DNA of 64,000 nt from Candidatus Buchananbacteria bacterium RIFCSPHIGHO2_02_FULL_39_17 (GTDB lineage Bacteria > Patescibacteriota > Patescibacteriia > Buchananbacterales > UBA6539), in the NCBI GenBank assembly GCA_001817425.1, contig MHII01000012.1, positions 77 through 64,076 of the forward strand. Reading direction: 5' to 3'. The translations under genes were made by a program, and so were the position numbers. This document shows, in pieces, positions 1 to 64,000 of this stretch. Each line of letters starts with the position of its first letter. The stretch's first letter is position 1. The notes beneath the pieces were generated by a model. It made no database searches and was not told the origin of the DNA. It saw nothing but the letters and a program-made list of their open reading frames with translations.

Positions 1-89
1 TTCGTCAACTAAAATCATTGCCAAGAAATTAGATTTTTGGTAGAATTAAAGTGCTTCATTTTTAGCAGTTAATTTAATTATTTAAAAAT

Positions 90-2713: not shown

Positions 2714-4969
2714 ATGGCTTTAATTTCTAAAAAAATTAGATTAAAATTTTTTTTATTTGTTTTTTTATTTCAATTTTTCGTGTTTTTTTATAATTCAGAT
2801 GTTTTGGCTAAAAATGAACAAATCGACTATCGTCTAGGCGAGGTTTTGTTAAAGTTTAAGGGCGATGAGGAGATCTATAAATTAAAATTTTCCGTCGAGA
2901 CTGACGTTGGGCAAATTATTAATCAATACACAAATTTCGGTGAAATTGAAAATATCAGCCCAAACTATTTAGTTAGGGCTACGGCTTTTCCTAATGACCC
3001 GGACTATTTGTTGCAGTGGTACTTAAATCCAATTAACGCGAAAGCGGCTTGGTCAAAAGCCTTGGTGGTCCGGGAACAGGAATTTAATAGTCGGCAGTCA
3101 GTCATTGCTGTTTTAGATAGCGGTGTTGATTTAAATCATCCAGATTTAAAAGGACAAATTTGGCGCAATAAAAAAGAAATCGCTAATGACCAAGTTGATA
3201 ATGATAATAATGGCTATACGGATGACATCACTGGTTGGGATTTTGTTGAATGGGATAATGATCCCAATCCATCTTTTACTTTCGGTTTTGATGAAAGTGC
3301 GATTAAGCATGGAACAATTGTCGCGAGTCTCGCCGCGGCGACCTCGCATAATAATCAGGGCATTGCCGGCGTTAGTTGGTTCAGCCAAATTATGCCCTTG
3401 CGCGTTTTAGACAGCAGTGGGGCTGGGGATATCTATACGGTTATTCAGGCGATTAATTATGCGGTTAGTAACGGCGCGGATATTATTAATATGAGTTTTA
3501 TTGGTAGCCATTTTGAAGCTAATTGGTTTTCGGCCATCAGAAATGCTTATAATAAAAATGTGTTGGTGGTGGCCGCGGCGGGTAATACTGATCCAGCGGT
3601 CAATGGCGTTAATCTTGATCTTCATAAGTATTATCCAGTTTGTTTTGACGGGGATAATGGTGAAAATTTTGTCATTGGCGTGGCGGCCGTAGGCAAGGAT
3701 CTAAAGAAATCAAGCTTTTCCAATTATGGCAGTTGTATTGACATTACGGCGCCAGGCGAGGATTTTTATGCGGCCCAGGTTTATAATCCTAAATTTAGCG
3801 GCTTTAGCAATTATTATGATGGCTATTGGTCCGGGACTTCACTGTCCGCGCCATTAGTCAGCGGTACCCTGGCTTTAATTAAGGCTTTGCGACCTTCTTT
3901 AACTGCCTCGCAAATCAGAGATTTTGTTTTTGAAGGTGCTTCTGATATTGATCAATACAATGCCGAATTTAAAAATAAATTGGGAGCGGGAATGCTTGAT
4001 GTGGCTAATGCAGTGGAAGTCACCTTGGGCAAAAGAGTGTCTAAAGAAAAGGGCGGTGAAGATAATTATATTTTGGTGGGCTTAGGTTCAGGATCTTTTC
4101 CGCAATTAAAGATTTTAAGAACTGATGGTTCAGTTTTTAAAGAATTTTACGCCTATAGTCCGACTTTTAACGGGGAAGTGAAAGTGGCGGCGGGCGATGT
4201 TAACGGTGATGGTCAAGATGAAGTGGTCACCGGAACCGGCAGTGGCGGCGGGCCTCATGTTCGGATTTTTAACATTGAAGGTCAGTTAATTTCCCAATTT
4301 TTTGCGGCTGATAAAAAATTGCGCGGTGGGATTAATATCGCCGTGGCTGACATCAATGGGGATAACATTGACGAAATTATTACTGGTGCGGGCAAGGGGA
4401 GCGAGCCAGAAGTTAAAATTTTTGACTCGCAAGGTAATCTTTTAAAAAAGTTTTTGGCTTATAACCAAACTTTTCGGGGCGGAGTTAAGGTTGCGGTCGC
4501 TGATTTTAACCATGACGGTAAGAACGATATTGTGACTGGGGCGGGCAGTGGCGGCGGGCCTCATGTTCGAGTTTTTAGTTCAGATGGCGAATTAATTTCC
4601 CAATTTTTTGCTTTTAATAAAAATTCTAGGGGTGGGGTTAATGTTGCCGTGGCTGACTTGCACGGTGACGGCCAGCCTGAAATTATTGCTGCGATTGAAA
4701 ATAATGCGGTGCCAGAAGTCAGGGTTTTTACTTATCTTGGTTCGCCGGCGGGCAGTTTTTTTGCCGCTAATCCGAATTCTTTAACCGGTGTTAATATTTC
4801 TGCCGGCGATGTTGACAATGACCGAATTGCCGAAGTTATTACCGGCTTAGGCGTTGGCGGCAATTCGGAAATTAAAATTTTTGATTTACAAGGGAAAACT
4901 AAATTTGAATTTTTTGCCCACACCTTAAATTATCTTGGCGGCGCTAGGACCGCTGTCTTGCGCTATTAA
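2714..4969 (+). CDS. Secreted subtilisin-like serine protease (peptidase S8) with C-terminal FG-GAP/VCBS-type repeats
   Basis: N-terminal signal/TM segment. Catalytic Asp (VLDSGVD), His (HGTIVASLAAA) and Ser (GTSLSAP) motifs. Five or more repeats of VADxNGDGxDEIxTGxGxGGGPHVRIF, typical FG-GAP. Confidence 0.8.
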   Translation: MALISKKIRLKFFLFVFLFQFFVFFYNSDVLAKNEQIDYRLGEVLLKFKGDEEIYKLKFSVETDVGQIINQYTNFGEIENISPNYLVRATAFPNDPDYLLQWYLNPINAKAAWSKALVVREQEFNSRQSVIAVLDSGVDLNHPDLKGQIWRNKKEIANDQVDNDNNGYTDDITGWDFVEWDNDPNPSFTFGFDESAIKHGTIVASLAAATSHNNQGIAGVSWFSQIMPLRVLDSSGAGDIYTVIQAINYAVSNGADIINMSFIGSHFEANWFSAIRNAYNKNVLVVAAAGNTDPAVNGVNLDLHKYYPVCFDGDNGENFVIGVAAVGKDLKKSSFSNYGSCIDITAPGEDFYAAQVYNPKFSGFSNYYDGYWSGTSLSAPLVSGTLALIKALRPSLTASQIRDFVFEGASDIDQYNAEFKNKLGAGMLDVANAVEVTLGKRVSKEKGGEDNYILVGLGSGSFPQLKILRTDGSVFKEFYAYSPTFNGEVKVAAGDVNGDGQDEVVTGTGSGGGPHVRIFNIEGQLISQFFAADKKLRGGINIAVADINGDNIDEIITGAGKGSEPEVKIFDSQGNLLKKFLAYNQTFRGGVKVAVADFNHDGKNDIVTGAGSGGGPHVRVFSSDGELISQFFAFNKNSRGGVNVAVADLHGDGQPEIIAAIENNAVPEVRVFTYLGSPAGSFFAANPNSLTGVNISAGDVDNDRIAEVITGLGVGGNSEIKIFDLQGKTKFEFFAHTLNYLGGARTAVLRY

Positions 4970-5428: not shown

Positions 5429-5526
5429 ATAAATTAGTTATTTTATAATTATAATAAAGGTTAAGATTAATACAGTGTTTGTTTAAAGGCATAAGATAAT
5501 ATTATACAAATTCATTTTGAGATTTT

Positions 5527-5560
5527 CCGCCCAAGGCGGATCCGCCTCTGGCGGAGAGGA
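5527..5560. mobile_element. GC-rich double-hairpin element, family 2, flanked by an 11-bp direct repeat
   Basis: ccgcccaaggcggatccgcctctggcggagagga lies between two copies of tttgagatttt (5516-5526 and 5561-5571). Confidence 0.65.
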
Positions 5561-6600: not shown

Positions 6601-7296
6601 ATGAATGTCCAGGTTGTTATTCCGGCTTACAATGAAGCAAAAACAATTTTTGAAATTATTAGAAAACTTAAAGATCAAGTCAGTCAAATCATTACGGTTG
6701 ATGACGGTTCAACAGATGACACCGGTGAATTAGCCAAACAGGCCGGAGCAAAAGTCTTAACTCATTTTTTAAATCGTGGCCAGGGTGCAGCACTGCAAAC
6801 TGGCATTTCTTTTGCTTTGGCGAATGGGGCGGAAATTATTGTCACTTTTGACGCCGATGGTCAGCATAATCCCGATGAGATTGATCAGGTCATTAAACCA
6901 TTATTGTTGGGTGAGGTAGATGTAGTGCTGGGTTCAAGATTTCTGGAATCAAGAATTAAGAATCAAGAATTAAGAATCAAGAATGTTCCTTTAATGAGGT
7001 TCGTTGTCTTGAAACTGGCGGCTTGGTTTACCCGGCTTTATACTGGTCTTAAAGTGACCGATGCCCATAATGGTTTTCGGGCTTTTTCGGCAAAAGCCGC
7101 CAGTTTAATTGAAATTAAGCAAGACGGGATGGCGCATGCTTCAGAAATTATTGAACAAATTAAAAAACAAGGCCTAAAATTCAAAGAAGTGCCGGTGGAA
7201 ATTAATTATACCAACTACTCATTGGAGAAGGGTCAAAAGTTAAGCAATTCCTGGAGGATTGTTTGGGATTTAATCATTAAGAGAATATCAAAATGA
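6601..7296 (+). CDS. Glycosyltransferase family 2 (dolichyl-phosphate mannose/glucose synthase-like)
   Basis: VVIPAYNEAKTI, DDGSTDDT and DADGQH motifs. Likely start is ATG 6601, just after the upstream TGA; the ORF track extends it to 6523. Contains an in-frame heptamer repeat tract at 6959-6998. Confidence 0.8.
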   Translation: MNVQVVIPAYNEAKTIFEIIRKLKDQVSQIITVDDGSTDDTGELAKQAGAKVLTHFLNRGQGAALQTGISFALANGAEIIVTFDADGQHNPDEIDQVIKPLLLGEVDVVLGSRFLESRIKNQELRIKNVPLMRFVVLKLAAWFTRLYTGLKVTDAHNGFRAFSAKAASLIEIKQDGMAHASEIIEQIKKQGLKFKEVPVEINYTNYSLEKGQKLSNSWRIVWDLIIKRISK

Positions 7297-7679: not shown

Positions 7680-7714
7680 CATTTGGATTTTGGATTTGAT
7701 TTGACATTGGTCAT

Positions 7715-8791
7715 TTGGATTTTGTTATTTTGCGTATGGCCGACAGAGTATTAATTATCATTTTATGCTACAACGGCGCGGATTATCTCCGCGACTGTTT
7801 GTCTTCACTTAGTAAACTTAATTATTCTAAAGATAGTTTTGAAATTTTAGTCATTGACAACGCTTCAACTGATAATTCCGTTGCAACAATTAACAGTTTA
7901 CAATCAACAATTAACAATTTAATTTTAATTCAGAATAAAACTAATCTTGGTTTTGCCACCGGCAATAATATTGGCCTGCAATATGCCATTAACCATAATT
8001 TTGATTATGTTTATTTGTTAAACCAAGATACGGTGGTTGAGCCAGATTTTTTGGAAAAAGCTGTTGAAATCGGGGAGTCAGATATTCAAATCGGCGCGGT
8101 GCAATCAAAACTGCTTTTATTTCAAGATAAAACTAAAATTAACAGCATCGGCAATGAAATTCATTATTTAGGCTTTGGTTTTGCCGGCGGTTACCAGTTG
8201 CCAGATCAGGAGTTAGAAGTCAGAGAGATTACCTATAGTTCCGGCGCCGCCAGCCTGTACCGCATCTTAGCGTTAAAACAAGTTGGCCTCTTTAACCCTG
8301 ATTTTTTTATGTACCACGAAGATACTGATTTGGGCTGGCGGCTGTGGCTTTTTGGTTTTAAAATAATTTTAGCGCCAAAATCTGTGGTTTACCATAAATA
8401 TGAGTTTTCCCGCAGCATTCAAAAATATTATTTTATGGAACGGAACCGTTATTTGGTGCTTTTACAAAATTATAAATGGCAAACTTTGTTGTTAATTGGT
8501 CCAGCTTGCGCCTTGATGGATGTGGTGATGTTTTTTTACTCATTTTTTGCCGGCTGGTGGCGGGAAAATTTAAAAGTCTGCTGGTATTTTTGCCACCTAA
8601 AAAATTGGCAAAAAATAATAAAGACCAGACGTCGGGTCCAATCTAAACGAAAAATCACTGACCGGGAAATGGTTGAACGTTTTGTCGGTAAAATTGAGTT
8701 TCAGGATTTGGATAATCCGTTACTGACTAATTTAGTCAACCCGGTTTTTAATTTATATTGGCAAATAGTGAAGAGATTGATTTTTTGGTAG
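7715..8791 (+). CDS. Glycosyltransferase family 2 (rhamnosyltransferase-like)
   Basis: ILCYNGADYLRDCLSSL and DNASTDNS motifs plus a DxD-region. An alternative start is ATG 7736. Confidence 0.75.
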   Translation: MDFVILRMADRVLIIILCYNGADYLRDCLSSLSKLNYSKDSFEILVIDNASTDNSVATINSLQSTINNLILIQNKTNLGFATGNNIGLQYAINHNFDYVYLLNQDTVVEPDFLEKAVEIGESDIQIGAVQSKLLLFQDKTKINSIGNEIHYLGFGFAGGYQLPDQELEVREITYSSGAASLYRILALKQVGLFNPDFFMYHEDTDLGWRLWLFGFKIILAPKSVVYHKYEFSRSIQKYYFMERNRYLVLLQNYKWQTLLLIGPACALMDVVMFFYSFFAGWWRENLKVCWYFCHLKNWQKIIKTRRRVQSKRKITDREMVERFVGKIEFQDLDNPLLTNLVNPVFNLYWQIVKRLIFW

Positions 8792-10561: not shown

Positions 10562-10711
10562 ATTTTTATTATCTTAACATATTAAATTTATCACTTTTAA
10601 ATCTAAAAGTCCAATTGATTTTTAAAAAGAAATTTGCTAAAATTACTATATTATTTTTGTTTTTACATGATAAAACCTACAAGCTACTTTCTACAAGCTA
10701 CGAGCTAAAAT

Positions 10712-11860
10712 ATGAGAATTGCCATTATTACCCCCACTTTTCCGTCGTATGCCGGCGGCATTGGCAAGGTCGCGGCGTTTAACGCGCGAGAACTGAAAAA
10801 GCTTGGCCATCAGGTCACGGTTTTTACTCCTGACTATGAACCGGTTAAAGAAGAATTTACTGATTTAGAAATTAAGCGCATTAAGCCGCTTTTTAAATAT
10901 GGTAATGCCGCTTTTATTCCGGCTTTGGGTAAAATGCTCAAAGGTTTTGATATTATTCATCTCCATTATCCATTTTTCGGCGCCGCCGAAATTATTTGGC
11001 TCCATAATTCAAAATTCAAAATTCAAAATTCAAAATTGATTCTACATTACCATATGGATGTAGTCGGGCGCGGATGGTTAAAATTAATTTTCAAATTTCA
11101 CAATCAATTTATCTTGCCTAAAATTGTTAAAGCCGCGGATAAAATCATTTTCACTTCATTGGATTATAGTAAAAATTCAAATTTGGCAAAATGGTTGAAA
11201 AATCAGCCGTCAAAATTTGTGGCAATCCCCAACGGCGTTGACAGCCAAAATTTTTTACCTCAACTAAAAAGTCAAACCTTGCTGGAAAAATACCAGATTA
11301 ATCCTAGCGATAAAATTATCCTTTTTGTCGGCGGTTTAGACCAGGCGCATTATTTCAAAGGCATTGAATATTTACTCCAAGCGGTTTCGCGCCTGCGCCA
11401 AACCGCTTATTTTTGGAAATTAATCATTGTCGGCGAAGGTGATTTAAAAAATTATTATTCTGATTACGCCAATCAGTTAGGGCTTGATAATGAAGTAATA
11501 TTTAGTGGTTATGCTCCGGACGAGGATTTACCCAATTATTATAACTTGGCTGATGTTTGCGTTTTGCCCTCCATTGACAAATCTGAAGCTTTTGGCTTAG
11601 CTTTAATTGAGGCGATGGCGTGCGGAAAACCGGTCGTGGCAACAGATTTGGCCGGCGTGCGAAGCGTGGTTGAAGACGGGGTTAACGGGCTTTTGGCCCA
11701 GCCGAAAAATGCCGCTGATTTGGCGGCAAAAATTAATTATTTATTAATTAATCCCGAAATTGCCCAAGAGTTTGGCCACAACGGCCGGAAAAAAGTGGAA
11801 GAAGAGTATGAGTGGGGGAGGATCGGGAGAAAGCTAGATGAATTATATAAGAGTTTATAA
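10712..11860 (+). CDS. Glycosyltransferase family 4
   Basis: C-terminal EAFGLALIEAMACGKPVVATDLAGVRSVVEDGVNGLL (GT4 E-X7-E region). Contains an in-frame (attcaaa)x4 heptamer tract at 11006-11036, encoding NSKFKIQNSK. Confidence 0.8.
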   Translation: MRIAIITPTFPSYAGGIGKVAAFNARELKKLGHQVTVFTPDYEPVKEEFTDLEIKRIKPLFKYGNAAFIPALGKMLKGFDIIHLHYPFFGAAEIIWLHNSKFKIQNSKLILHYHMDVVGRGWLKLIFKFHNQFILPKIVKAADKIIFTSLDYSKNSNLAKWLKNQPSKFVAIPNGVDSQNFLPQLKSQTLLEKYQINPSDKIILFVGGLDQAHYFKGIEYLLQAVSRLRQTAYFWKLIIVGEGDLKNYYSDYANQLGLDNEVIFSGYAPDEDLPNYYNLADVCVLPSIDKSEAFGLALIEAMACGKPVVATDLAGVRSVVEDGVNGLLAQPKNAADLAAKINYLLINPEIAQEFGHNGRKKVEEEYEWGRIGRKLDELYKSL

Positions 11861-11866
11861 AAATTT

Positions 11867-11961
11867 CCCTCTTAAGATAAGAGGGGAGAGGGGAGTTATG
11901 AGTGTAAGTTTTAAAAAATTAATAACCCCATCCACCTCCCCCTTAATTTAAGGGGGGAGAG
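11867..11961. mobile_element. MITE-like derivative (~95 bp) of the DUF559 element, with hairpin termini and no ORF
   Basis: The left end ccctcttaagataagaggggagaggggagttatgag and right end taaccccatccacctcccccttaatttaaggggggagag closely match the two ends of the DUF559 element at 61224-61656. Only ~20 bp lies between them here. Confidence 0.6.
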
Positions 11962-20431: not shown

Positions 20432-20866
20432 ATGTCAGATTGTATTTTTTGTAAAATTGTGGCGGGTCAAATTCCGGCAGCTAAAATTTACGAGGACGAC
20501 AAAGTCTTGGCTTTTTTGGATATTAATCCGATCAATCCCGGCCATACTTTGGTTATTCCTAAAATTCATTTTTCCAATTTAACCCAAACGCCAGTTGAAG
20601 TTTCACAGAATTTAATTATGGTAATCAAAAAAATCAGTCCAGCCATCATGAAAGGCGTAGGCGCCCAAGGTTTTAATTTAGGGTTAAATAATGGTTCAAT
20701 CGCCGGCCAAATTATTTTTCATATGCATTTTCATTTAATACCGCGATTTGCCGATGATGGCCATAAACTTTGGTCTGGCCGGCAATATCAGCTAGGCGAA
20801 ATGGAAAAAGTTGCAGAAAACATAAAAAAATTCCTAATTCCTAATTCCTATTTCCTATATGGCTAA
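20432..20866 (+). CDS. HIT family hydrolase (histidine triad)
   Basis: HIT motif HMHFHLIP and the N-terminal CIFCKI zinc-binding-like motif. Confidence 0.8.
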   Translation: MSDCIFCKIVAGQIPAAKIYEDDKVLAFLDINPINPGHTLVIPKIHFSNLTQTPVEVSQNLIMVIKKISPAIMKGVGAQGFNLGLNNGSIAGQIIFHMHFHLIPRFADDGHKLWSGRQYQLGEMEKVAENIKKFLIPNSYFLYG

Positions 20867-22956: not shown

Positions 22957-23059
22957 TCAAAAGGCAAAAGTCAAAATTGCAATTCAAAATTCAAAAGTAA
23001 AAAGTAATAATTTTGATTTTTAACTTGAACTTTTAATTTTTAACTTTTAACTTTTGAAT
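22957..23059. repeat. Left arm of the 103-bp inverted repeat enclosing rmlA
   Basis: Its reverse complement matches 23824-23926 at 102 of 103 positions. Built from caaaag/acttttaa units. Confidence 0.85.
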
Positions 23060-23064
23060 TTTTT

Positions 23065-31497: not shown

Positions 31498-31545
31498 CTC
31501 CCCCTTAAATTAAGGGGGGGGGTGAGAGGGGGTTAAATTTCAAAA
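31498..31545. repeat. Hairpin element related to the DUF559-element termini
   Basis: ctcccccttaaattaaggggggg followed by gagagggggtta, cf. 11936-11959 and 61634-61656. Confidence 0.5.
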
Positions 31546-32645: not shown

Positions 32646-32684
32646 CTACAAGCTACAAGCTACAAGCTACAAGCTACAAGCTAA
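32646..32684. repeat. Tandem heptamer (ctacaag)x5 immediately upstream of the pyrG start
   Basis: ctacaagctacaagctacaagctacaagctacaagcta ends 4 bp before the pyrG ATG. The same ctacaagct motif lies upstream of GT4 (10686-10705) and at the edges of the in-frame palindromic elements in murD and fpg. Confidence 0.8.
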
Positions 32685-34662: not shown

Positions 34663-34768
34663 ATTTAAAAAATTAAAAATTAAAATCTAAAATTTGAAAT
34701 ATGTTTTTAATATTATACCAAATCAACAAAATTGTCAAGAAGTTTTGATTAATATATACTGGAAAAGT

Positions 34769-38485: not shown

Positions 38486-38516
38486 CTCCGCCAGAGGCGG
38501 ACTCGCCTCTGGCGAG
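38486..38516. repeat. GC-rich double-hairpin element, family 2, inverted copy
   Basis: ctccgccagaggcggactcgcctctggcgag. Its reverse complement aligns with 5527-5560, sharing an identical second hairpin and a covarying first stem. Confidence 0.7.
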
Positions 38517-40398: not shown

Positions 40399-40856
40399 TA
40401 AAAATCAGAAATAGCTGAACTTAATTGGGTTGATTTTTCCGAGGTGCCAACTGTTGAGGGCCAAAAAACCGTTACCGTAATTTTTTTCAGTCCAGTATCG
40501 TTGGCGCTAACATTAAAATTACTGTCAAGATATTCAACAATTGTCTGTCTTTGAAAAGCGTAATAAAAATCAGTCGGATCACTTGATAATCTTTGTTTGG
40601 CTTCAATCGTGCCAGTGCTGATATTGTCGTAGCCTAGGCTGATGACTTCTTCAATTTTTGCCACGGCTAAATTAGAGGCGGTAGTTAATCTTTGGGCATC
40701 GCCGGTGATTTTCAAGCTTAAAGGGAAAATTTGAACCACGGCAAAAAGGCCAACCATTAAAATCATTGTGGCAATGGCCGCTTCAATAATGGTAAACCCC
40801 GCACTATGTTGGCGTAAGTTATTTTTGTCAATTTTTATAAATGATTTTTTAAACAT
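40398..40856 (-). CDS. Prepilin-type N-terminal cleavage/methylation domain protein (pseudopilin)
   Basis: RQHSAGFTIIEAAIATMILMVGLFAVVQIF. Confidence 0.65.
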   Translation of the reverse strand: MFKKSFIKIDKNNLRQHSAGFTIIEAAIATMILMVGLFAVVQIFPLSLKITGDAQRLTTASNLAVAKIEEVISLGYDNISTGTIEAKQRLSSDPTDFYYAFQRQTIVEYLDSNFNVSANDTGLKKITVTVFWPSTVGTSEKSTQLSSAISDF

Positions 40857-40922
40857 TACTATTTTTTTGATTATTCTTTATGAATTTTGGTATCTACTGA
40901 ATTAACGCCAACATAGTGCGGG
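40797..40922. repeat. Long-range inverted repeat around the start of prepilin gene 40398-40856
   Basis: ccccgcactatgttggcg (40797-40814, codes RQHSAG) and cgccaacatagtgcgggg (40905-40922) are an 18-bp perfect inverted repeat. The 90-bp spacer contains the ATG. Confidence 0.8.
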
Positions 40923-40936
40923 GTAAACCCTTGTTT

Positions 40937-41419
40937 TTAATCAATAACTTCAACATAGCCTGATGGTTTGATGTTTATCGTGGATATTTGACTTCTGGTG
41001 TTAGTCAAGGTAATTGAGCCGGTTTCCGCCACCCCGCCTGTCGGATTGAAACTGACTAAATCATTAGTCAGGCCAGAGATTTGACTGATGGAAACTTCAG
41101 TGTCTAAATTAACTTCTTTATTGACGTTACTGGTTTCCGAATTAACGATTTGATATTTTTTAGTTAGGGGAAAGAGTTTGAGCTGATAAATTTTTTGTTC
41201 CGTGACAGCTAATTGCTGGGTAAGCCGTAAATTGGTGGCTAAGACCCGAGCCTCACTTTTTAATTTGGTGTTTTTTTGGTAGTTGACAAAAAGCGGGGCG
41301 CTAATAATTGAAATAAAAGCGATAATACCTAAAACCGCAGCAAGCTCAGTAATCGTAAACCCCGCACTTTGTTGGCGTAGGTAATTTTTGTTTATTCTTT
41401 TGAAAATATTTTTAACTAT
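40937..41419 (-). CDS. Prepilin-type protein; reading frame intact but no ATG start (ATA at the aligned start position)
   Basis: Manual minus-strand translation gives IVKNIFKRINKNYLRQQSAGFTITELAAVLGIIAFISIISAPLF...GYVEVID*. It aligns codon for codon with MFKKSFIKIDKNNLRQHSAGFT of the neighbouring gene. It is absent from the ORF track because it lacks ATG. Confidence 0.45.
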   Translation of the reverse strand: MVKNIFKRINKNYLRQQSAGFTITELAAVLGIIAFISIISAPLFVNYQKNTKLKSEARVLATNLRLTQQLAVTEQKIYQLKLFPLTKKYQIVNSETSNVNKEVNLDTEVSISQISGLTNDLVSFNPTGGVAETGSITLTNTRSQISTINIKPSGYVEVID

Positions 41420-41486
41420 TTATCATTTATTAATTTATTTTTTGAACCTAAAATTTTGAGGAATAAATGCCAACATAGTGCGGGGT
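41360..41486. repeat. Long-range inverted repeat around the start of the prepilin reading frame 40937-41419
   Basis: ccccgcactttgttggc (41360-41376) against gccaacatagtgcgggg (41470-41486), 16 of 17 complementary. Spacer ~90 bp. Confidence 0.7.
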
Positions 41487-49596: not shown

Positions 49597-51111
49597 ATGA
49601 ATTTCACGGGTAGAAAAGTGACGGTCATGGGTTTAGGGCTCCACGGTGGTGGAGTCTCTTGCGCTAACTGGCTGATAAAGCACGGCGCTAAAGTGACGGT
49701 GACTGATTTGAAAACCAAAGAAGAGCTTAAGCCATCTTTAGATAAGTTAGCGATCAAACGATCAAGCGATCAAACGATCAAGTTAGTGCTTGGATATCAC
49801 CGTGAAAATGATTTTAGAAATGCTGATCTAATTGTTCAAAACCCGGGTGTGCCAAGGGAATCAAAATATTTGGCAATTGCCAAAAAATCTGGCGTGCCAA
49901 TTGAAAATGAAGCCAGCCTTTTTTTTAAATATTGTCCGGCAAAAATTATCGGCGTCACAGGAACGCGTGGCAAATCAACCACGTCAAGCTTAATTTATCA
50001 ACTTCTAAAAGTTAAAAGCTATCCCGACGTAAAGTCGGGATCCCGACCGAAGCGTCGGGACAAACTACAAGCTCGTAAAGTCTGGCTGGCCGGACTGCCC
50101 CAAAAGCCGATGTTAGAAATTTTAGATCAAATTAAGCCTAATGATTTGGTGGTTTTAGAGCTTTCCAGCTGGCAATTAGAAATTTTAGGCGAACAAAAAT
50201 TAAGTCCGCAAATCGCGGTTCTGACTAATATTTATCCCGATCATTTAAATCGCTATTTGGGTATGGCTGATTACGTTAAAGCTAAAATCAACATTTTTCA
50301 GTGGCAAAATAAAAATGATTTTGTCGTTTTGAATTTAGATAATTTTGAAACAAAAAAACTTGGCGGAAAAGTCAGGGCCAAAAGATTTTTGTTTTCCAAA
50401 AAATATTTTGCCGAACAAAACGGCAGCTTTATTAAAAATAAACAAATTTTTTTCCGAAAAGACGGCAAAACTTACAAACTTACTAACTTATCAACTTATA
50501 AACTTATTGGCGAGCACAATTTAGAAAATTTTTTGGCCGCGATCACGGTTGCCGGAATTTTTGGTGTTAAACCAAAAGAAATAACGGCGGCTTTGAATAA
50601 GTTTAAGGGTTTGCCGGGGCGAATTGAGTTAATCAGGGAAAAAAACGGCGTAAAATATATTAATGACACAACCGCGACCACGCCTGATGCCACCATGGCC
50701 GCTCTAAAAATATTTTTAGAGCGGCAAATCCCAAATTCTAAATCCCAAACCCTAAGTAAATTCAAAATTCAAAATTCAAGATTCAAAATTATTCTGATAG
50801 CTGGAGGAGCGTCAAAAAATATTCCTATTCAAAAATATCAAGAGTTAGCCGCAATGATAAAAAAAACTTGTAAGGCCGTGATTCTATTTGAGGGGGAAGG
50901 GAGCGATCAGATGGCCAAAGATTTAAAGGCCATAAAATTTAGAGAATTAGTGACCAATGTTTTAGGGATGTCTTCAGCGGTTGGCATTGCTAATAATTTT
51001 TCGCAAACAGGCGATATCATTTTACTCTCTCCGTCTTCAGCTTCGTTTGGTTTGTTTATTAATGAATTTGATCAGGGTGATCAATTTAATAAGATAGTTT
51101 CTGATATTTAA
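49597..51111 (+). CDS. murD: UDP-N-acetylmuramoylalanine--D-glutamate ligase
   Basis: KVTVMGLGLHGGGVSCANWL, the P-loop GVTGTRGKSTTSSL, and the Mur ligase C-domain. Three in-frame repeat insertions: 49745-49778, 50011-50071 and 50757-50793. Confidence 0.85.
   Translation: MNFTGRKVTVMGLGLHGGGVSCANWLIKHGAKVTVTDLKTKEELKPSLDKLAIKRSSDQTIKLVLGYHRENDFRNADLIVQNPGVPRESKYLAIAKKSGVPIENEASLFFKYCPAKIIGVTGTRGKSTTSSLIYQLLKVKSYPDVKSGSRPKRRDKLQARKVWLAGLPQKPMLEILDQIKPNDLVVLELSSWQLEILGEQKLSPQIAVLTNIYPDHLNRYLGMADYVKAKINIFQWQNKNDFVVLNLDNFETKKLGGKVRAKRFLFSKKYFAEQNGSFIKNKQIFFRKDGKTYKLTNLSTYKLIGEHNLENFLAAITVAGIFGVKPKEITAALNKFKGLPGRIELIREKNGVKYINDTTATTPDATMAALKIFLERQIPNSKSQTLSKFKIQNSRFKIILIAGGASKNIPIQKYQELAAMIKKTCKAVILFEGEGSDQMAKDLKAIKFRELVTNVLGMSSAVGIANNFSQTGDIILLSPSSASFGLFINEFDQGDQFNKIVSDI
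50011..50071. mobile_element. GC-rich double-hairpin element, family 1, inserted in frame in murD
   Basis: aaaagctatcccgacgtaaagtcgggatcccgaccgaagcgtcgggacaaactacaagct has two hairpins sharing the tcccgac/gtcggga stem and ctacaagct at its edges. It encodes KSYPDVKSGSRPKRRDKLQA, which is absent from canonical MurD. Confidence 0.7.
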
Positions 51112-51172
51112 GGCAAATTAATTATGATGTTTAATTCTAAATTATTGATTTTTAATTTTTAATTTTGAAACA

Positions 51173-53442: not shown

Positions 53443-53628
53443 TCAAATTAAACGGGAAGAAATAGAAGATAACTAAAATAGATTAAAAAATTCCAAATTC
53501 TAAATCCTAAATTATAAATAATATTAAAATTCAAATTTACAAATTTAAAAAAGTTTTATTCGTTTGGATTTTAGTTATTGGGATTTATTTAGGATTTAGT
53601 GCTTAGAATTTAGGATTTATCTTTATTT
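53443..53628. repeat. AT-rich palindromic element (ctaaatcc-unit inverted repeats) upstream of the patatin gene
   Basis: aattctaaatcctaaa...tttaggatttagtgcttagaatttaggattta. Shares its 3' ~30 bp with the element at 54538-54678. Both end ~5 bp before an ATG. Confidence 0.7.
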
Positions 53629-54537: not shown

Positions 54538-54678
54538 CTTAAAATTCTAAATTCTAAATCCGAAATCCTAAACAAATTCCAAATTCTAAACTCCAATTTT
54601 TTAAACAGTTTGTAATTTGTGATTTTGGATATTGTGATTTACTTAGAATTTAGTGCTTAGAATTTAGGATTTAATATT
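54538..54678. repeat. AT-rich palindromic element upstream of murC, paralogous to 53443-53628
   Basis: aaattctaaattctaaatccgaaatcctaaa...cttagaatttagtgcttagaatttaggattta. Confidence 0.7.
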
Positions 54679-56076: not shown

Positions 56077-56176
56077 AATTCGAATTTTGATTCAATATCT
56101 TAATATTTTAATTTTTAAAAATTCAGATATTCAAAATTGATTCAAAATTCAAAATTAAAAATTCAGATTTTTACGT

Positions 56177-61249: not shown

Positions 61250-61656
61250 GGGAGTTATGAAGTATAATTATCATTATAATAACCATAAATTAAAAACTTT
61301 AAGACGAAACTTACGACAGAACCAAACTGATGCCAAAAAATTAATTTGGTCAAAACTTAGGAATAAACAATTAAATGATTTGAAATTTTATAGACAATAC
61401 AGTATTGGCTCGTATATTTTAGATTTTTATTGTCCTAAAAAGAGATTAGCGATAGAGATTGACGGCGGACAGCATAACGAAACAATTAATCTAAAAAAAG
61501 ATAATGTGCGATCAGAATATTTAAAACATCAGGACGTTAAGGTTATAAGATTTTAGAATAATGATATTATAAATAATTTAGAAGGAGTATTTGAAAAAAT
61601 TAAAGAAGCAGTATCGTTAATAACCCCCTCCATCTCCCCCTTATATTAAGGGGGAG
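61224..61656 (+). mobile_element. Mini mobile element with hairpin termini carrying a DUF559 (Vsr-like endonuclease-fold) gene
   Basis: The left end cccctcttaaaggtaagaggggttaggggagttATG and right end taaccccctccatctcccccttatattaagggggag are palindromic. The same two ends occur back to back at 11867-11961 without the ORF. Confidence 0.6.
61257..61649 (+). pseudogene. DUF559 endonuclease-domain gene interrupted by an in-frame TAG at the conserved RFW motif
   Basis: YRQYSIGSYILDFYCPKKRLAIEIDGGQHNE...DVKVIRF*NNDIINNLEGVFEKIKEAVSL. DUF559 proteins normally read RFWN followed by a tail, so TAG replaces the Trp codon. Confidence 0.55.
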
Positions 61657-61699
61657 AATAATAATAGGCGGCAAAATATTTTAATTTTGAAATTTAATA

Positions 61700-62452: not shown

Positions 62453-62958
62453 TTTTTTTTAGCCATTGACATTTAATTAATGTTTTGATATATTTATTTT
62501 ACAGTTTTAGAATAAATGAGATGGGATTGGAAAAACTTGGATTTCCGGCAATGCAAACATTAGTCATTACTTTATTTTATTCAATTTTTCTTCTAGTTTG
62601 GATTTTGCTTTTAATTTATAGTATTGGACAATTTTGGAGATAAAAAAGGAGAAAATGACAATGAAGAATGCTATTCTCTCATTTGTCCCTTATGCACCTT
62701 GGATCAGAGAATTCACATCAAAAATGTCCAGAAGACAAAGTTTGTTTTTTGGGTAATGCATATTTTGATGTCATTCTCATGGGTACTAATCGCTATTGCG
62801 GTTATATCCGCCGTAGTTTACGGCATTTGACCAAGATAATCTGCTCTTGTTCAATAAGTTAGGGCAGATTTACCACATCAAAAGATTTGGTGCGGCTTTT
62901 TTATTTTATAAAAAAATGATAGGATATATTAGCAATTTAATTTCCTAACTTCTAAATC

Positions 62959-63948
62959 ATGCCTGAATTACCGGAAGTGGAAACTCTACGCCGCGAATTA
63001 AATTCAGCGATTAAAGGTAAAACCATTAAATCAGCAGAAATCAAATGGCCGAAAATGGTTAAGCCATTAACGCCGCTTGAGTTTGCCAAAAAAATAAAAG
63101 GCAAAAAAATCACGGCTATTAATCGCCGCGCCAAGGTTTTGATTTTATTTTTATCTGATGGTAATTTTTTACTCATCCATTTGAAACTCACAGGCCAACT
63201 CATTTATCAACCTAAAAAGCTACAAGCTATCCCGACGTTGCCGATGCGAAGATCGGCATTCCGACTTTACGTCGGAACAAGTCGGGATCCCGACCGAAGC
63301 GTCGGGACAAGCTATAAGCTAATCATCGGTGGTCACCCGCTTCCGCTTCGCTTCAGCGAGGCGAGTCCGCAAAAAGGCGGCACCGAAAATCTGCCCAATA
63401 AATTTACTCATATTATTATTACTTTTAACGATAGTTCAAAATTATTTTTTAATGATTTGCGAAAATTTGGCTGGATGCGGATAGTTAATAAGTTAGAAGT
63501 TGATAAGTTGTTAAGTGAGTACGGGGTTGAGCCTTTGACAAAAGAATTTAATTTGAAAAAATTTAAAGAAATATTAAAGAGATATCCGAACCGGAAAATT
63601 AAGCAGATTTTAATGGACCAAAGTTTAATCGCCGGGATTGGCAATATTTATTGCGACGAAAGTTGTTTTGGCGCGAAAATCTTGCCCACCAGAATCATTC
63701 AAACTTTAAAGGAAGAAGAAATTAAATTACTTTATCGCTGTATCCCAAAACTTTTAAAATTTGCCATTTCAAAAAAAGGTACATCAGCCAATACTTATAT
63801 CCAGCTTGACGGTAAGCCAGGCGGTATGGAGCCATATTTAAAAGTTTACGCTCGAAAAGGGGAGAAGTGCAAAAGGTGCGCCGGTGAAATTAAGAGAATT
63901 AAATTAAACGGCCGCGGCACTCATTTTTGTCCAAATTGCCAAAAATAA
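62959..63948 (+). CDS. mutM: Formamidopyrimidine-DNA glycosylase (Fpg/MutM)
   Basis: N-terminal MPELPEVE with the catalytic Pro2 and Glu3, an H2TH region, and a C-terminal zinc finger CKRC...CPNC. Carries ~170 bp of in-frame GC-rich palindromic insertions at 63216-63385. Confidence 0.85.
   Translation: MPELPEVETLRRELNSAIKGKTIKSAEIKWPKMVKPLTPLEFAKKIKGKKITAINRRAKVLILFLSDGNFLLIHLKLTGQLIYQPKKLQAIPTLPMRRSAFRLYVGTSRDPDRSVGTSYKLIIGGHPLPLRFSEASPQKGGTENLPNKFTHIIITFNDSSKLFFNDLRKFGWMRIVNKLEVDKLLSEYGVEPLTKEFNLKKFKEILKRYPNRKIKQILMDQSLIAGIGNIYCDESCFGAKILPTRIIQTLKEEEIKLLYRCIPKLLKFAISKKGTSANTYIQLDGKPGGMEPYLKVYARKGEKCKRCAGEIKRIKLNGRGTHFCPNCQK
63216..63320. mobile_element. GC-rich hairpin element, family 1, expanded copy, inserted in frame in fpg
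   Basis: aaaagctacaagctatcccgacg...gtcgggatcccgaccgaagcgtcgggacaagctataagct. Its 3' 40 bp are nearly identical to the murD copy and its edges carry ctacaagct. Confidence 0.7.
63349..63385. repeat. Family-2-like double hairpin inside the fpg coding sequence
   Basis: cgcttcagcgaggcgagtccgcaaaaaggcgg follows the ggcgag-tccgcNNNNNggcgg layout of 38486-38516 and 5527-5560. Confidence 0.5.
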
Positions 63949-64000
63949 AAAGGCTTAATATTTTAAGCCTTTGGATAAAGAACGTTATAGGTTTTGATTA

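What the first reader, a model, noticed from the sequence alone, without database searches (positions are those of the whole stretch)
63216..63385. The fpg (mutM) interdomain linker carries two different palindromic element families in tandem, both in frame
Between the N-terminal domain (…HLKLTGQLIYQPKK) and the H2TH region (KFTHIIITFND…) there are ~55 extra residues. They are encoded by a family-1 element (63216-63320), followed by a family-2-like double hairpin (cgcttcagcgaggcgag-tccgcaaaaaggcgg, 63349-63385).

The frame and the C-terminal zinc finger remain intact, so the protein is probably functional. This makes the locus a hotspot or permissive site for element insertion, and a natural experiment on how much insertion the Fpg linker tolerates.
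Basis: partly seen in the sequence, partly recalled or inferred. Interest (0 to 1): 0.6.

Follow-up and report, generated by a model that had tools for sequence, protein, structure and literature searches.

The report
Nested hairpin repeats inside Fpg loop
A DNA-repair gene (fpg) of an uncultured Patescibacteria bacterium carries, in frame in a surface loop, a 7-base tandem repeat invaded by small GC-rich hairpin repeats, one of which is a 20-base hairpin found unchanged in many bacterial phyla; it is a bacterial counterpart of the palindromic elements of Rickettsia genes and yeast mitochondria.

Summary
The extra DNA is real: an independent assembly has the identical sequence. The inserts lie in a beta-hairpin loop inside the N-terminal domain of Fpg, not in the interdomain linker. 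They occupy two separate sites, split by the conserved IIGGH motif.

Site A (63220-63321) is a (CTACAAG)3 heptamer run interrupted at CTA^CAAG by a 78-nt cluster of four hairpins (63230-63307). The cluster looks like one 39-nt double hairpin nested in the loop of another. Orthologs show the intermediate stages: empty site, heptamer run alone, run plus one 18-nt hairpin with no target duplication, and the window's form.

Site B (63337-63366) is a 30-nt hairpin-bearing insert found only in fpg. It occurs in five unrelated lineages with almost identical DNA.

About half of the related Fpg proteins carry something at site A. At least four hairpin families and five heptamer units use these two positions, so the hotspot idea holds.

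The terminal hairpin TCCCGACCGAAGCGTCGGGA occurs exactly in at least 118 genomic stretches across phyla. There it lies in heptamer runs, beside tRNA genes, or in frame in housekeeping genes. No linked transposase, Rfam family or paper was found.

Best reading: REP/RPE/GC-cluster-like miniature hairpin DNA that is translated and tolerated. How it moves is unknown.

The parts
62959..63948 (+). fpg/mutM gene, 329 aa, intact host of the inserts
   Evidence: ORF. Pfam Fapy_DNA_glyco 1e-31, H2TH 2e-23, zf-FPG 3.5e-11. MutM structures at E = 1.8e-53. AF2 model matches MutM with target-normalised TM 0.92-0.93.
63220..63229 (+). Left part of the in-frame heptamer run: CTACAAG CTA^
   Evidence: Joined with 63308-63321 it reads (CTACAAG)(CTA^CAAG)(CTATAAG)CTA. 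It is 33/33 nt identical to the uninterrupted run in ortholog P0012. The same unit forms tandem runs at 10677-10707 and 32646-32683.
63230..63307 (+). 78-nt cluster of four GC-rich hairpins (26 codons) inserted into the heptamer run at CTA^CAAG
   Evidence: Delimited by comparison with P0012 (no hairpin) and P0018/L001 (one 18-nt hairpin at the same point, no target duplication). Folding z = -6.2.
63230..63287 (+). H1: outer hairpin. Arms are TCCCGAC (63230-36) and GTCGGGA (63281-87); its loop holds two nested hairpins
   Evidence: Inverted repeats I5/I6 and centroid fold. The same architecture occurs in L071. The canonical un-nested form, TCCCGAC-GTAAA-GTCGGGA, is in murD.
63239..63258 (+). 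Nested hairpin a: TGCCGAT-GCGAAG-ATCGGCA (20 nt)
63259..63277 (+). Nested hairpin b: TTCCGAC-TTTAC-GTCGGAA (19 nt). Hairpins a + b total 39 nt, the length of a canonical double hairpin
63288..63307 (+). H0: TCCCGAC-CGAAGC-GTCGGGA, the 20-nt hairpin conserved across phyla
   Evidence: Identical at 50041-50060 in the window. Exact matches in at least 118 stretches of the genome collection, from many phyla. No stop codon in any of the six frames.
63308..63321 (+). Right part of the heptamer run: ^CAAG CTATAAG CTA
63337..63366 (+). Site-B insert, 30 nt / 10 aa (PLPLRFSEAS), between GGH and PQKGG. Contains the hairpin CGCTTCGC-TTCA-GCGAGGCG (63344-63363) and is bounded by a CCGC...CCGC direct repeat
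   Evidence: Absent from 85 of 104 homologs and present in 6. 29/30 and 28/30 nt identical in P0003 and P0011, with the differences in the loop triplet. Carriers are polyphyletic. Not found outside fpg in 1.32 Mb.
63367..63380 (+). CCGCAAAAAGGCGG: native codons for PQKGG, not an element
   Evidence: PQKGG is conserved across the lineage. The same or synonymous codons occur in empty-site orthologs L126, L130 and L124.
50022..50060 (+). Sister copy: canonical 39-nt double hairpin (H1 + H0) in frame in murD, between CTACAAG-type heptamer units (50014-21 and 50061-73)
32646..32683 (+). Uninterrupted (CTACAAG)x5.4 run, 6 nt upstream of a start codon (a similar run lies at 10677-10707, 5 nt upstream)

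Best explanation
The extra loop in this Fpg is built from layers of selfish or neutral repeat DNA that landed in a solvent-exposed, structurally tolerant beta-hairpin loop of the N-terminal domain. It is translated as a disordered peptide.

Shown:
1. An in-frame run of three CTACAAG heptamers (3 x 7 = 21 nt) occupies the loop in a set of orthologs.
2. An 18-20-nt perfect GC hairpin inserted into that run at CTA^CAAG without target duplication.
3. In the window's lineage the cluster has grown to four hairpins (78 nt = 2 x 39), with two hairpins nested in the loop of the first and the pan-bacterial hairpin H0 abutting it.
4. A separate 30-nt hairpin-bearing insert sits 15 nt downstream, directly against a native hairpin-like sequence.

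Persistence in the ORF follows from the sequences themselves. The hairpins have no stop codon in any frame. The canonical double hairpin is 39 nt. The heptamer run is open in the sense orientation. Selection removes any version that breaks the frame.

Inferred, not shown: the hairpin units spread as single-stranded DNA hairpins that are recognised by structure. They preferentially enter or abut existing hairpins, heptamer runs and the stem-loop boundaries of tRNA genes. The agent would be trans-acting: a Y1/HUH-type enzyme as for REP/RAYT, or a replication template-switch process. Short-patch homologous recombination between fpg alleles would help explain the patchy distribution.

The confidence of 0.7 applies to the 'layered repeat DNA, translated and tolerated' reading. 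The specific mobilisation mechanism (a Y1/HUH-like enzyme) deserves only about 0.3.
For: Location and tolerance
- The insert lies between strands E79-84 and E150-156. Residues 88-137 have pLDDT below 50 while the rest is mostly above 90.
- The core superposes on MutM-DNA complexes at TM 0.92-0.93.
- All catalytic and zinc-finger residues are kept.

Stepwise series at one codon position
- Empty: L126, L127, L128, L130.
- Run only: L125 and P0012.
- Run plus an 18-nt hairpin: L001.
- Run plus 78 nt: the window.

DNA-level conservation beyond coding constraint
- The run is 33/33 nt identical to P0012, against 71% nt and 51% third-position identity for the rest of the gene.

Dispersed family
- H0 is identical in murD and in at least 118 genomic stretches, against about 1 expected by my estimate.
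- 53 of 122 copies have a perfectly paired 7-bp hairpin abutting H0, against 1 of 122 in the control, with at least 5 compensated stem variants.
- Nested forms occur elsewhere: L071, L073, L077, L040.

Translated, not removed
- 16 of 122 copies lie in frame in long ORFs (by motif: DnaK, UvrB, RecG, MnmA, NusA, TsaD). None splits a gene out of frame.
- Cluster length is a multiple of 3 in 34 of 58, against about 19 expected.

Hotspot
- 51 of about 104 homologs are longer than baseline at site A.
- Other hairpin families sit at the same sites in L207, L208, L203, L004 and L002.

Real sequence
- An independent assembly is identical.

Precedent
- Intragenic REPs are reported often in replication and repair genes (PMC3733652).
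- Yeast mitochondrial GC42 double hairpins have conserved stems and variable loops, merge with one another, and transfer by flank recombination (PMC4478555).
Against: - No mobilising enzyme was found. There is no transposase, HUH enzyme or reverse transcriptase among 20 small window ORFs. No gene recurs within about 4 kb of H0 in 118 loci. H0 is absent from viral, phage and plasmid collections.
- The window holds only two copies of this hairpin family in 64 kb, so high copy number in this genome is not shown.
- Translation of the insert, enzyme activity and the position of the loop relative to bound DNA are inferred, not measured.
- The tree used for polyphyly is a simple NJ tree without support values, although pairwise identities agree with it.
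- The strong DNA conservation of the run and of site B could equally mean selection on a nucleic-acid structure.
Confidence: 0.7

Rival explanations
1. Selected function. The insert is kept because it does something. It could act as a basic, disordered, Arg-rich extension that helps Fpg bind DNA or partners. Alternatively the hairpins could act in the mRNA or DNA, for example in translational pausing between folding units, mRNA stabilisation or processing as for REPs, or as a protein-binding site.
For: - Insert DNA is conserved more than the surrounding coding sequence: 33/33 nt for the run, and 29/30 and 28/30 nt for site B, against 70-73% gene-wide.
- Stems are conserved while loops vary, at site B and in H1.
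- H0 is invariant across phyla.
- Di Nocera et al. note an excess of intragenic REPs in repair genes.
Against: - The closest relatives lack or replace each insert: P0002 is 85% identical outside the loop and has neither.
- Half of the homologs have the bare loop.
- The same loop carries unrelated sequences in other lineages.
- The peptide is predicted to be disordered.
- Arginine richness follows automatically from CG-rich codons.
Confidence: 0.12
2. Site B, and possibly the heptamer run, is not a transposing element. It is an fpg-specific indel polymorphism passed between lineages by short-patch homologous recombination, or gained once and repeatedly lost by slippage between the flanking CCGC repeats.
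For: - The site-B sequence occurs only in fpg at this site in 1.32 Mb of held sequence.
- It is flanked by a 4-nt direct repeat.
- Carriers are polyphyletic with near-identical insert DNA.
- The preceding His codon is CAC in 4 of 5 carriers and CAT in 7 of 8 non-carriers, which hints at a conversion tract.
- GC42 is known to move between yeast species by flank recombination.
Against: - Codons flanking the insert are otherwise as diverged as the rest of the gene.
- The 13-nt junction shared with the family-2 hairpin pair at 38497 points to kinship with a dispersed family.
- The repeated-loss version requires strong conservation in keepers alongside harmless loss in most lineages.
Confidence: 0.3
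3. The insert never reaches the protein. It would be skipped by programmed translational bypassing, as with phage T4 gene 60 or the mitochondrial 'byps', or excised from the mRNA. The matching AAGCTA motifs on either side (63217-22 and 63316-21) would serve as take-off and landing sites.
For: - GC hairpins in an AT-rich genome, flanked by direct repeats AAGCTAYAAGCTA.
- Skipping from the first AAG CTA to the second would restore the consensus KL-IIGGH.
- Precedent exists in mitochondria and T4 (papers listed; their details are from memory).
Against: - The insert is in frame and free of stops, so bypassing is not needed.
- Among 122 copies of H0 none interrupts a gene out of frame, while 16 are in frame.
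- Cluster lengths are enriched for multiples of 3.
- Older heptamer-run inserts have diverged at the amino-acid level like translated sequence, for example NKLQPKSYKL and NRLKAKGHKL.
Confidence: 0.03
4. Ordinary lineage-specific loop expansion by local duplication and point mutation, with no mobile or repeat DNA involved. An assembly artefact or pseudogene would be variants of this reading.
For: About 17 of the 56 extra residues are typical of the lineage (GGHPQKGG and neighbours).
Against: - The same sequences occur at unrelated loci in the window and in other genomes.
- GC content jumps from about 0.3 to about 0.58 across the insert.
- An independent assembly has the identical sequence.
- All catalytic residues are retained.
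Confidence: 0.03

Closest known systems
Rickettsia palindromic elements (RPEs; Ogata et al. 2000, from memory; classed as CGTC-tagged REPs in PMC3733652)
   Same: Palindromic repeats inserted in frame into housekeeping genes of a small AT-rich genome. They are translated as extra surface peptide and are absent from orthologs.
   Different: RPEs are roughly 100-150 nt and confined to Rickettsia. Here the units are 18-20-nt hairpins (39-nt doublets) that nest in one another, sit inside heptamer runs, and include a 20-mer shared across phyla.
REP / BIME / REPIN elements and their RAYT transposases (PMC3733652, PMC3116915)
   Same: GC-rich hairpins of 20-40 nt, often in pairs or clusters. Across copies the 5' flank reads (T/G)TAG, like the GTAG tag. 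Intragenic copies are reported especially in replication and repair genes.
   Different: The window copies have CTA, not GTAG, at the 5' flank, and CGTC is paired inside the stem. No RAYT or other recurrent gene lies nearby. REP families are species-specific, whereas H0 is identical across phyla. Nesting and the heptamer context are not REP features.
Yeast mitochondrial GC clusters (GC42; PMC4478555), Allomyces double-hairpin elements and sponge RHEs (PMC2800124)
   Same: Double hairpins of about 40 nt, GC-rich in an AT-rich genome. Target ends in AG. Stems are conserved and loops variable. Clusters merge and nest. Transfer between lineages occurs by recombination at conserved flanks. Occasional insertion into coding sequence.
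   Different: Those are organellar. GC42 carries a putative AG target duplication, whereas none is seen here. There is no sequence relationship.
Cyanobacterial small dispersed repeats (SDR; Elhai et al. 2008) and STRR heptamer repeats
   Same: From memory and citing papers: hairpin-forming elements of 21-27 nt that insert into one another and into other repeats, in genomes rich in tandem heptamers.
   Different: SDRs were reported only in Nostocaceae, and the sequences are different. The paper was not available to check details.
Heptamer direct repeats just upstream of start codons (TAACTGA in Beggiatoaceae, Cyanobacteria and Bacteroidetes; PMC4679880)
   Same: Short tandem 7-nt runs lying a few nt upstream of start codons, with the same unit at many loci and a patchy cross-phylum distribution. 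The window has 9 such runs 2-12 nt from a start.
   Different: Different units (CTACAAG, AATTCAA, AAAGTCA and others). In this window the runs also lie in frame inside genes and serve as landing pads for hairpins.

Membership tests
Fpg/MutM DNA glycosylase (host protein) | N-terminal catalytic Pro2-Glu3, Lys~57, and the three-domain layout: N-terminal beta-sandwich, H2TH, C-terminal C4 zinc finger | tested here: met
   Pfam hits to all three domains above cut-off. P2, E3, K59, R168, F170, C304, C307, C324 and C327 are invariant in A1. Model TM 0.92-0.93 to MutM.
REP (GTAG-tagged) elements | A 20-40-nt imperfect palindrome with an unpaired GTAG tetranucleotide at one end | tested here: inconclusive
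   The hairpins fit in size. Across 58 copies the 5' flank is T53/A70/G68 at -3..-1. The window's fpg and murD copies are preceded by GCTA instead.
REP (GTAG-tagged) elements | Association with a RAYT (Y1 transposase) gene flanked by the repeats (REPtron) | tested here: not met
   No recurrent gene within about 4 kb of 118 H0 loci. No Y1_Tnp hit among 20 small window ORFs. A single distant RAYT per genome cannot be excluded with these tools.
CGTC-tagged REPs (includes some RPEs) | Unpaired CGTC tag; 8-9-bp stem starting with A/T pairs; 4-5-nt loop; CCA-like tail (PMC3733652) | tested here: not met
   CGTC/GACG lies inside the 7-bp stem. Stems start with T/C-C-C, loops are 4-6 nt, and there is no CCA tail.
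Rickettsia palindromic elements | Sequence membership in RPE-1..8; about 100-150 nt; Rickettsia genomes | not tested
   No RPE consensus was available for alignment. Size, host and architecture differ.
Translationally bypassed inserts (byps / T4 gene 60 type) | The insert breaks the reading frame or carries stops, and has matched take-off and landing codons | tested here: not met
   The insert is in frame and stop-free. 0 of 122 family copies split a gene out of frame.
Known structured RNA families (Rfam 15) | Match to a covariance model | tested here: not met
   No relevant hit at E <= 10 in 62800-64000. Only tRNAs were found in 18 hairpin-bearing loci.
Window 'family-2' double hairpin (TCCGCC-NNN-GGCGGA + CTCGCC-TCT-GGCGAG; 5526, 38487) | Two abutting 6-bp hairpins with those stems, inside a heptamer run | tested here: inconclusive
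   The minus strand of fpg shares the 13-nt junction GCGGACTCGCCTC, found only at these two places. However, the first hairpin is native PQKGG codons, the second has a different 3' arm, and there is no heptamer run at site B.

The most novel reading that the evidence does not exclude
The fpg insert is one visible instance of an undescribed, pan-bacterial class of ultra-small (about 20 nt) self-nesting DNA hairpins built around an invariant 20-mer, TCCCGACCGAAGCGTCGGGA. These hairpins colonise heptamer tandem runs, the stem-loop boundaries of tRNA genes (where they mark partial tRNA duplications) and protein loops. They insert without target duplication and without any linked transposase. That would mean either a new kind of structure-targeted mobile element or the footprint of a conserved replication or repair process that writes hairpins into DNA.
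Probability: 0.3. Interest if true: 0.8.

Novelty: new variant of a known kind. Interest (0 to 1): 0.6.

Why it matters
- It gives a base-by-base evolutionary series (empty loop, heptamer run, one hairpin, nested double hairpins) for how tiny repeat DNA builds new protein sequence inside an essential-type repair enzyme.
- It shows that Patescibacteria, despite genomes of about 1 Mb, carry in-frame hairpin and heptamer repeats in many housekeeping genes. This affects gene calling, protein length comparisons and structure prediction for these organisms.
- It exposes a 20-nt hairpin conserved exactly across distant phyla with no known family, enzyme or vector. If that hairpin marks a common mechanism, it would link REPs, RPEs, cyanobacterial SDR/STRR repeats and mitochondrial GC clusters.

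Tried and rejected
- **Rfam:** the locus at E <= 10 and 18 hairpin loci gave nothing but tRNAs.
- **Literature search for the hairpin sequence:** no paper, on either strand, as DNA or RNA. Searches on CPR/Patescibacteria with palindromic repeats, REP or RAYT found no description. Elhai 2008 could not be read.
- **Carriage by phages or plasmids:** H0 is absent from IMG/VR and from phage records. The only plasmid hit is a chance one, E = 0.7.
- **A linked mobilising gene:** all-against-all clustering of 1,648 ORFs around 118 loci gave no recurrent neighbour, at most 5 loci per cluster. Pfam on 20 small window ORFs gave only housekeeping families. The larger window ORFs were not scanned.
- **Bypassing or splicing:** rejected because no copy breaks a gene out of frame.
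- **Site B as a dispersed repeat:** no other copy in 1.32 Mb, and the region does not fold better than shuffles.
- **H0 as a tRNA anticodon or T arm, or a cUUCGg tetraloop:** the register does not fit (reading of the sequence).
- **Target-site duplication:** none in the P0012/P0018 comparison or at tRNA sites, where TAG^CTCAG is split rather than duplicated.
- **Plain vertical inheritance of site B:** rejected by nearest-neighbour identities.
Full report
**1. What is at the coordinates**

The ORF 62959-63948 (+) is open and encodes 329 aa. Pfam finds the three Fpg domains:

| Domain | Residues | E-value |
|---|---|---|
| Fapy_DNA_glyco | 1-173, covering the whole 117-position profile | 1e-31 |
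| H2TH | 189-277 | 2e-23 |
| zf-FPG_IleRS | 301-329 | 3.5e-11 |

. Against solved structures the best match is G. stearothermophilus MutM (1l1t, E = 1.8e-53). Query residues 1-81 align to MutM 1-81 and query 148-329 to MutM 92-274.

These residues lie inside the N-terminal beta-sandwich domain, not in the interdomain linker. KFTHIIITFND is a strand of that domain and not the H2TH region.

An AlphaFold2 model built from 30 orthologs has mean pLDDT 81.6. Residues 88-137 fall below 50 and form an unstructured excursion between strands E79-84 and E150-156. The rest of the model superposes on MutM-DNA complexes with target-normalised TM 0.92-0.93 and rmsd 2.1-2.3 A. The catalytic P2/E3/K59, R168/F170 and the four zinc-finger cysteines are invariant columns of alignment A1.

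The insert starts about ten residues after the position of the intercalating Met77, which is Leu here, at the far end of the strand that follows it. I infer from this that the loop points away from the DNA. I did not measure it.

**2. The lineage baseline and two separate sites**

The 120 best homologs are Patescibacteria, several of them labelled Candidatus Buchananbacteria. Their modal length is 287-294 aa.

The alignment and loop-length counts show a baseline loop of 28 aa between TGQ and NKFTH...TGQLIFQPKKGKVVVGGHPQKGGTEALPNKFTH. About 17 of the 56 extra residues are therefore typical of the lineage, including the nearly invariant GGHPQKGG. The window has 69 aa in this stretch, 41 more than baseline.

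The excess sits at two sites separated by the conserved IIGGH:

- **Site A**, before GGH. Baseline is 15 aa in 53 of about 104 scorable proteins. The other 51 are longer, up to 71 aa.
- **Site B**, between GGH and PQKGG. Baseline is 13 aa in 85 proteins. Six proteins have +10 aa and four have other inserts.

**3. Anatomy of site A**

GC content rises from about 0.3 to 0.57-0.60 across 63230-63380. The sequence reads:

AAG CTACAAG CTA | TCCCGAC G T [TGCCGAT GCGAAG ATCGGCA] [TTCCGAC TTTAC GTCGGAA] CAA GTCGGGA | TCCCGAC CGAAGC GTCGGGA | CAAG CTATAAG CTA

If the GC part (63230-63307, 78 nt, 26 codons) is removed, the flanks join into (CTACAAG)(CTACAAG)(CTATAAG)CTA. The same heptamer forms uninterrupted tandem runs 5-6 nt upstream of two start codons in the window, at 10677-10707 and 32646-32683.

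The GC part consists of:

- an outer hairpin H1, with arms at 63230-36 and 63281-87;
- two further hairpins nested in the H1 loop: a (63239-58, 20 nt) and b (63259-77, 19 nt);
- hairpin H0 (63288-63307), which abuts H1.

Folding supports this arrangement. As single-stranded DNA the minimum free energy is -30.7 kcal/mol against -15.2 +/- 2.5 for shuffles (z = -6.2). As RNA z = -5.7. In both cases 0 of 200 shuffles fold as well.

A second copy lies in frame in murD at 50022-50060: TCCCGAC-GTAAA-GTCGGGA followed by the identical H0, again between CTACAAG-type units. That double hairpin is 19 + 20 = 39 nt, or 13 codons. The fpg cluster is 78 nt, and hairpins a + b also total 39 nt, so it reads as a double hairpin nested in the loop of another.

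**4. Orthologs show the intermediate stages**

Codon-level comparison of ortholog DNA gives this series at one position:

| State | Orthologs | Sequence at site A |
|---|---|---|
| Empty | L126, L127, L128, L130 | e.g. CCT AAA AAG GGT AGG GCA GTA ATC GGG GGT CAT |
| Heptamer run only | P0012/L205 | CCT AAA AAG CTA CAA GCT ACA AGC TAT AAG CTA |
| Heptamer run only (variant unit) | L125 | CTACCAG CTACCAG CTACAAG |
| Run + one hairpin | P0018/L001 | P0012-type run + TCCCGACTACCGTCGGGA (18 nt) at GCTA^CAAG, no target duplication |
| Run + 78-nt cluster | window | as in section 3 |

The P0012 run is 33/33 nt identical to the window's joined flanks, including the CTATAAG variant unit. Outside the loop the two genes are 71% identical at the nucleotide level and 51% at third codon positions. 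By my estimate 0.71^33 is about 1e-5.

The lengths add up: 288 + 5 = 293 (P0012), + 6 = 299 (P0018), and 293 + 26 + 10 = 329 (window).

Other orthologs carry different heptamer or octamer runs at the same place:

- CAAAAGT in L133;
- AGTTAAA in L131;
- AGAGAAC in L124;
- CAAGAAAA plus a decayed hairpin in L004.

Others carry different hairpins:

- CTCCCCCTT-GTG-AAGGGGGAG at site A in L208, and the same stem at site B in L207. This is the window's third hairpin family, which is intergenic at 11938, 31500 and 61633.
- GCCCCGC-CCGAA-GCGGGGC and others in L203.

Diverged derivatives of the CTACAAG run, such as NKLQPKSYKL, NRLKAKGHKL and PYKLKADGYGL, show that some runs are old and evolve as translated sequence. 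The hotspot or permissive-site idea is therefore well supported.

**5. Site B**

The insert is CCG CTT CCG CTT CGC TTC AGC GAG GCG AGT (63337-63366), encoding PLPLRFSEAS. It holds an 8-bp hairpin, CGCTTCGC-TTCA-GCGAGGCG, and is bounded by a CCGC...CCGC direct repeat.

The following tccgcaaaaaggcgg is the native PQKGG. Empty alleles have the same or synonymous codons. The region as a whole does not fold better than shuffles (z = -0.09).

The insert matches the window's at 29/30 nt in P0003, 28/30 in P0011, 25/30 in P0004 and 23/30 in P0008. The differences in the closest three fall in the loop triplet (TTC, CCC, CAA).

The carriers are not a clade. Each is 81-85% identical, with the loop masked, to a non-carrier, but only 71-74% identical to the nearest other carrier. 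The window's closest relative, P0002, is 85% identical outside the loop and lacks the insert.

The sequence occurs nowhere else in the 1.32 Mb I hold. On the minus strand it shares a 13-mer, GCGGACTCGCCTC, with the 'family-2' hairpin pair at 38497. That 13-mer occurs at only these two places in the window, and 0 of 100 shuffles gave two matches. Beyond this junction the second hairpin differs.

I conclude that site B is a recurrently acquired or recombined hairpin cassette lodged against a native hairpin-like sequence.

**6. The hairpin H0 is not private to this genome**

My estimate of the chance expectation is about 1 (596 Gb x 2 strands / 4^20).

Hosts include:

- many Patescibacteria classes: Saccharibacteria, Paceibacterota, and the Kaiser-, Vogel-, Yanofsky-, Magasanik-, Falkow-, Doudna-, Roizman- and Adlerbacteria;
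- Bacteroidota, including two isolates (Draconibacterium sediminis and Flaviaesturariibacter amylovorans) and Mb-size contigs;
- Omnitrophica, Marinimicrobia, Saganbacteria, Methylomirabilis, Acidobacteriota and others.

In Patescibacteria H0 is usually the 3' half of a double hairpin: (T/G)TAG | CCCCGACG-loop-GTCGGGG | H0 | C....

- Position -2 is A in 70% of copies and -1 is G in 68%.
- 53 of 122 copies have a perfect 7-bp partner abutting H0, against 1 of 122 in a control.
- At least five compensated stem variants occur.
- Nested hairpins sit in the first loop in L040, L071, L073, L074 and L077.

Three contexts recur:

- **Inside runs of 7-8-nt tandem repeats:** L038 (with the same CAAGCTACAAGCTA flank as the window), L071, L074, L080, L081, L108, L112.
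- **Beside tRNA genes:** the hairpins sit at ...TAG^CTCAG... or GGTAG^AGCA of a partial copy of a tRNA 5' end, a few nt upstream of the intact tRNA. Examples are L023, L034, L035, L076, L077, L093, L099 and L120. The intact tRNAs were confirmed by Rfam.
- **In frame in genes.**

On the in-frame copies: 16 of 122 lie in ORFs that are open for at least 240 nt on each side. By their motifs these are DnaK, UvrB, RecG (twice), MnmA, NusA, TsaD and a class II aldolase. None interrupts a gene out of frame. The hairpin units have no stop codon in any of six frames, and CTACAAG runs are open only in the sense orientation. Cluster length is a multiple of three in 34 of 58 copies, against about 19 expected.

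**7. What moves it**

I could not find an agent.

- No gene family recurs within about 4 kb of H0; the largest cluster appears in 5 of 118 loci.
- Twenty small window ORFs are housekeeping genes.
- H0 is absent from 2.9 million viral contigs, from phage records and from plasmids.
- Rfam has no family for it.
- No paper in the library contains the sequence.

Three features point to recognition of single-stranded hairpin structure rather than of a linear target: insertion without duplication, the preference for existing hairpins, hairpin loops and stem-loop boundaries, and the C-GAA-G loop. From memory, C-GAA-G is the core of the unusually stable d(GCGAAGC) DNA mini-hairpin. This is how Y1/HUH enzymes such as RAYTs work on REPs.

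I therefore rank a trans-acting enzyme of that kind first, a replication template-switch process second, and short-patch recombination as a contributor to the patchy distribution. All three are inference.

**8. Comparison with what is known**

- **REPs.** In-frame palindromic repeats in genes are established for Rickettsia RPEs and for REPs. Di Nocera et al. explicitly note REPs inside replication and repair genes (PMC3733652). Their GTAG or CGTC tags are unpaired and their families are largely lineage-specific. Here CGTC is in the stem, the window copies lack GTAG, and no RAYT is linked.
- **Yeast mitochondrial GC42.** This is the closest behavioural analogue. These are double hairpins of about 42 nt with an AG target, conserved stems and variable loops. 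They merge with one another and transfer between species by recombination at their flanks (PMC4478555).
- **Cyanobacterial SDRs.** These are nested 21-27-nt hairpins reported only in Nostocaceae. They are likely similar, but the paper could not be read.
- **Heptamer direct repeats.** Runs just upstream of start codons, with an unexplained cross-phylum distribution, have been described in Beggiatoaceae, Cyanobacteria and Bacteroidetes (PMC4679880). The window has about 35 period-7 arrays. Nine lie 2-12 nt from a start codon, and several are in frame in other ORFs.

**9. Verdict**

The hotspot interpretation holds.

The thing itself is a new variant of a known kind: REP/RPE/GC-cluster-like miniature hairpin DNA, translated within a tolerant loop. 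Its unusual features are:

- self-nesting units of about 20 nt;
- heptamer runs as landing pads;
- a polyphyletic site-specific cassette at site B;
- a hairpin conserved exactly across phyla with no known enzyme.

An independent assembly with identical sequence excludes an artefact. Interest is moderate to high, mainly for the stepwise series and for the pan-bacterial hairpin.

Noticed in passing
L023, L034, L035, L047, L050, L076, L077, L091, L093, L099, L109, L017, L007 (TAG^CTCAG); L048, L120 (GGTAG^AGCA); L009, L020 (T-loop); L024: Double hairpins ending in H0 sit inside a partial copy (10-45 nt) of a tRNA gene end, placed a few to about 30 nt from the intact tRNA. The split is exact and without duplication. 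This suggests insertion coupled to local duplication, or repeated rescue of hit tRNA genes. The mechanism is unexplained.
   Followed up: partly
window 7681-7703, 10677-10707, 23011-23063, 32646-32683, 34668-34694(-), 51130-51166, 53587-53619, 54643-54673, 56140-56165: About 35 period-7 tandem arrays occur in 64 kb. Nine end 2-12 nt upstream of a start codon, with different units (CTACAAG, TTTAATT, ATTTAGG, TTAGAAT, ATTCAAA and others). This resembles the unexplained heptamer repeats described in Beggiatoaceae, Cyanobacteria and Bacteroidetes.
   Followed up: partly
window 6946-6984, 7885-7919, 11006-11037, 20829-20857, 50726-50790: Heptamer runs lie in frame inside other ORFs. Examples are RIKNQELRIKN, TINSLQSTINN, NSKFKIQNSK, and in murD QIPNSKSQTLSKFKIQNSRFK. 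The AATTCAA unit is shared by two unrelated genes.
   Followed up: partly
window 50022-50060 (murD ORF 49597-51111): A canonical 39-nt double hairpin (H1 with loop GTAAA, plus H0) lies in frame just after the P-loop region of MurD, between CTACAAG-type units. It encodes SYPDVKSGSRPKRRDKLQA. Orthologous murD genes were not compared.
   Followed up: partly
window 5526-5555 and 38487-38516: The 'family-2' pairs of 15-nt hairpins (TCCGCC-NNN-GGCGGA and CTCGCC-TCT-GGCGAG) also sit inside short AT-rich repeat units (TTGAGAT; TCCTAAA). The first lies about 20 nt upstream of a start codon. The architecture matches site A but the stems differ.
   Followed up: partly
window 11938-11956, 31500-31518, 61633-61657; L207 and L208: A third hairpin family, (T)CTCCCCCTT-loop-AAGGGGGAG(A), is intergenic in the window, with a shared left flank AATAACCCC.TCCA. 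In other fpg orthologs it occurs in frame: at site A in P0049 and at site B in P0106, giving ...PPSLPLVKGEG... peptides.
   Followed up: partly
Alignment A1 columns ~90-105 (after RAKVLILxL; window residues ~65-70): A third variable loop in Fpg. P0031 carries LLPSRRRAFRLASERERSATRY, and P0066, P0068, P0119 and P0120 carry 5-6 extra residues, between strands E60-65 and E70-74. It may be another permissive site for the same kind of DNA.
   Followed up: no
window 63334-63336 and orthologs: The His codon just before site B is CAC in 4 of 5 insert carriers and CAT in 7 of 8 non-carriers. This could be a trace of a conversion tract, or the insert boundary may lie one base further left.
   Followed up: no
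window residue 77 of Fpg (about 63187-63189): The DNA-intercalating Met77 of MutM is Leu in this protein, in a conserved HLKLTGQ motif, while R168 and F170 (equivalent to R112 and F114) are kept.
   Followed up: no
window 40783-40879 / 41346-41442 and 4134-4668: A 97-nt direct repeat (74% identity) lies near two pilin-like genes with N-terminal methylation motifs. A 153/306-nt periodic internal repeat lies inside the large ORF 2714-4969. Neither is related to the hairpins.
   Followed up: no
L006, L089, L092, L095, L113 and L021, L031, L094, L114 (Bacteroidota): In Bacteroidota H0 has its own conserved flanks, such as ...gaacagctgtgctggtcgaaa|H0|gcaaaag... and ...gtcggagcgaagcggaga|H0|cggtcttgcagtcc..., followed by 7-9-nt tandem repeats. 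These look like lineage-specific composite elements built around the same hairpin.
   Followed up: no
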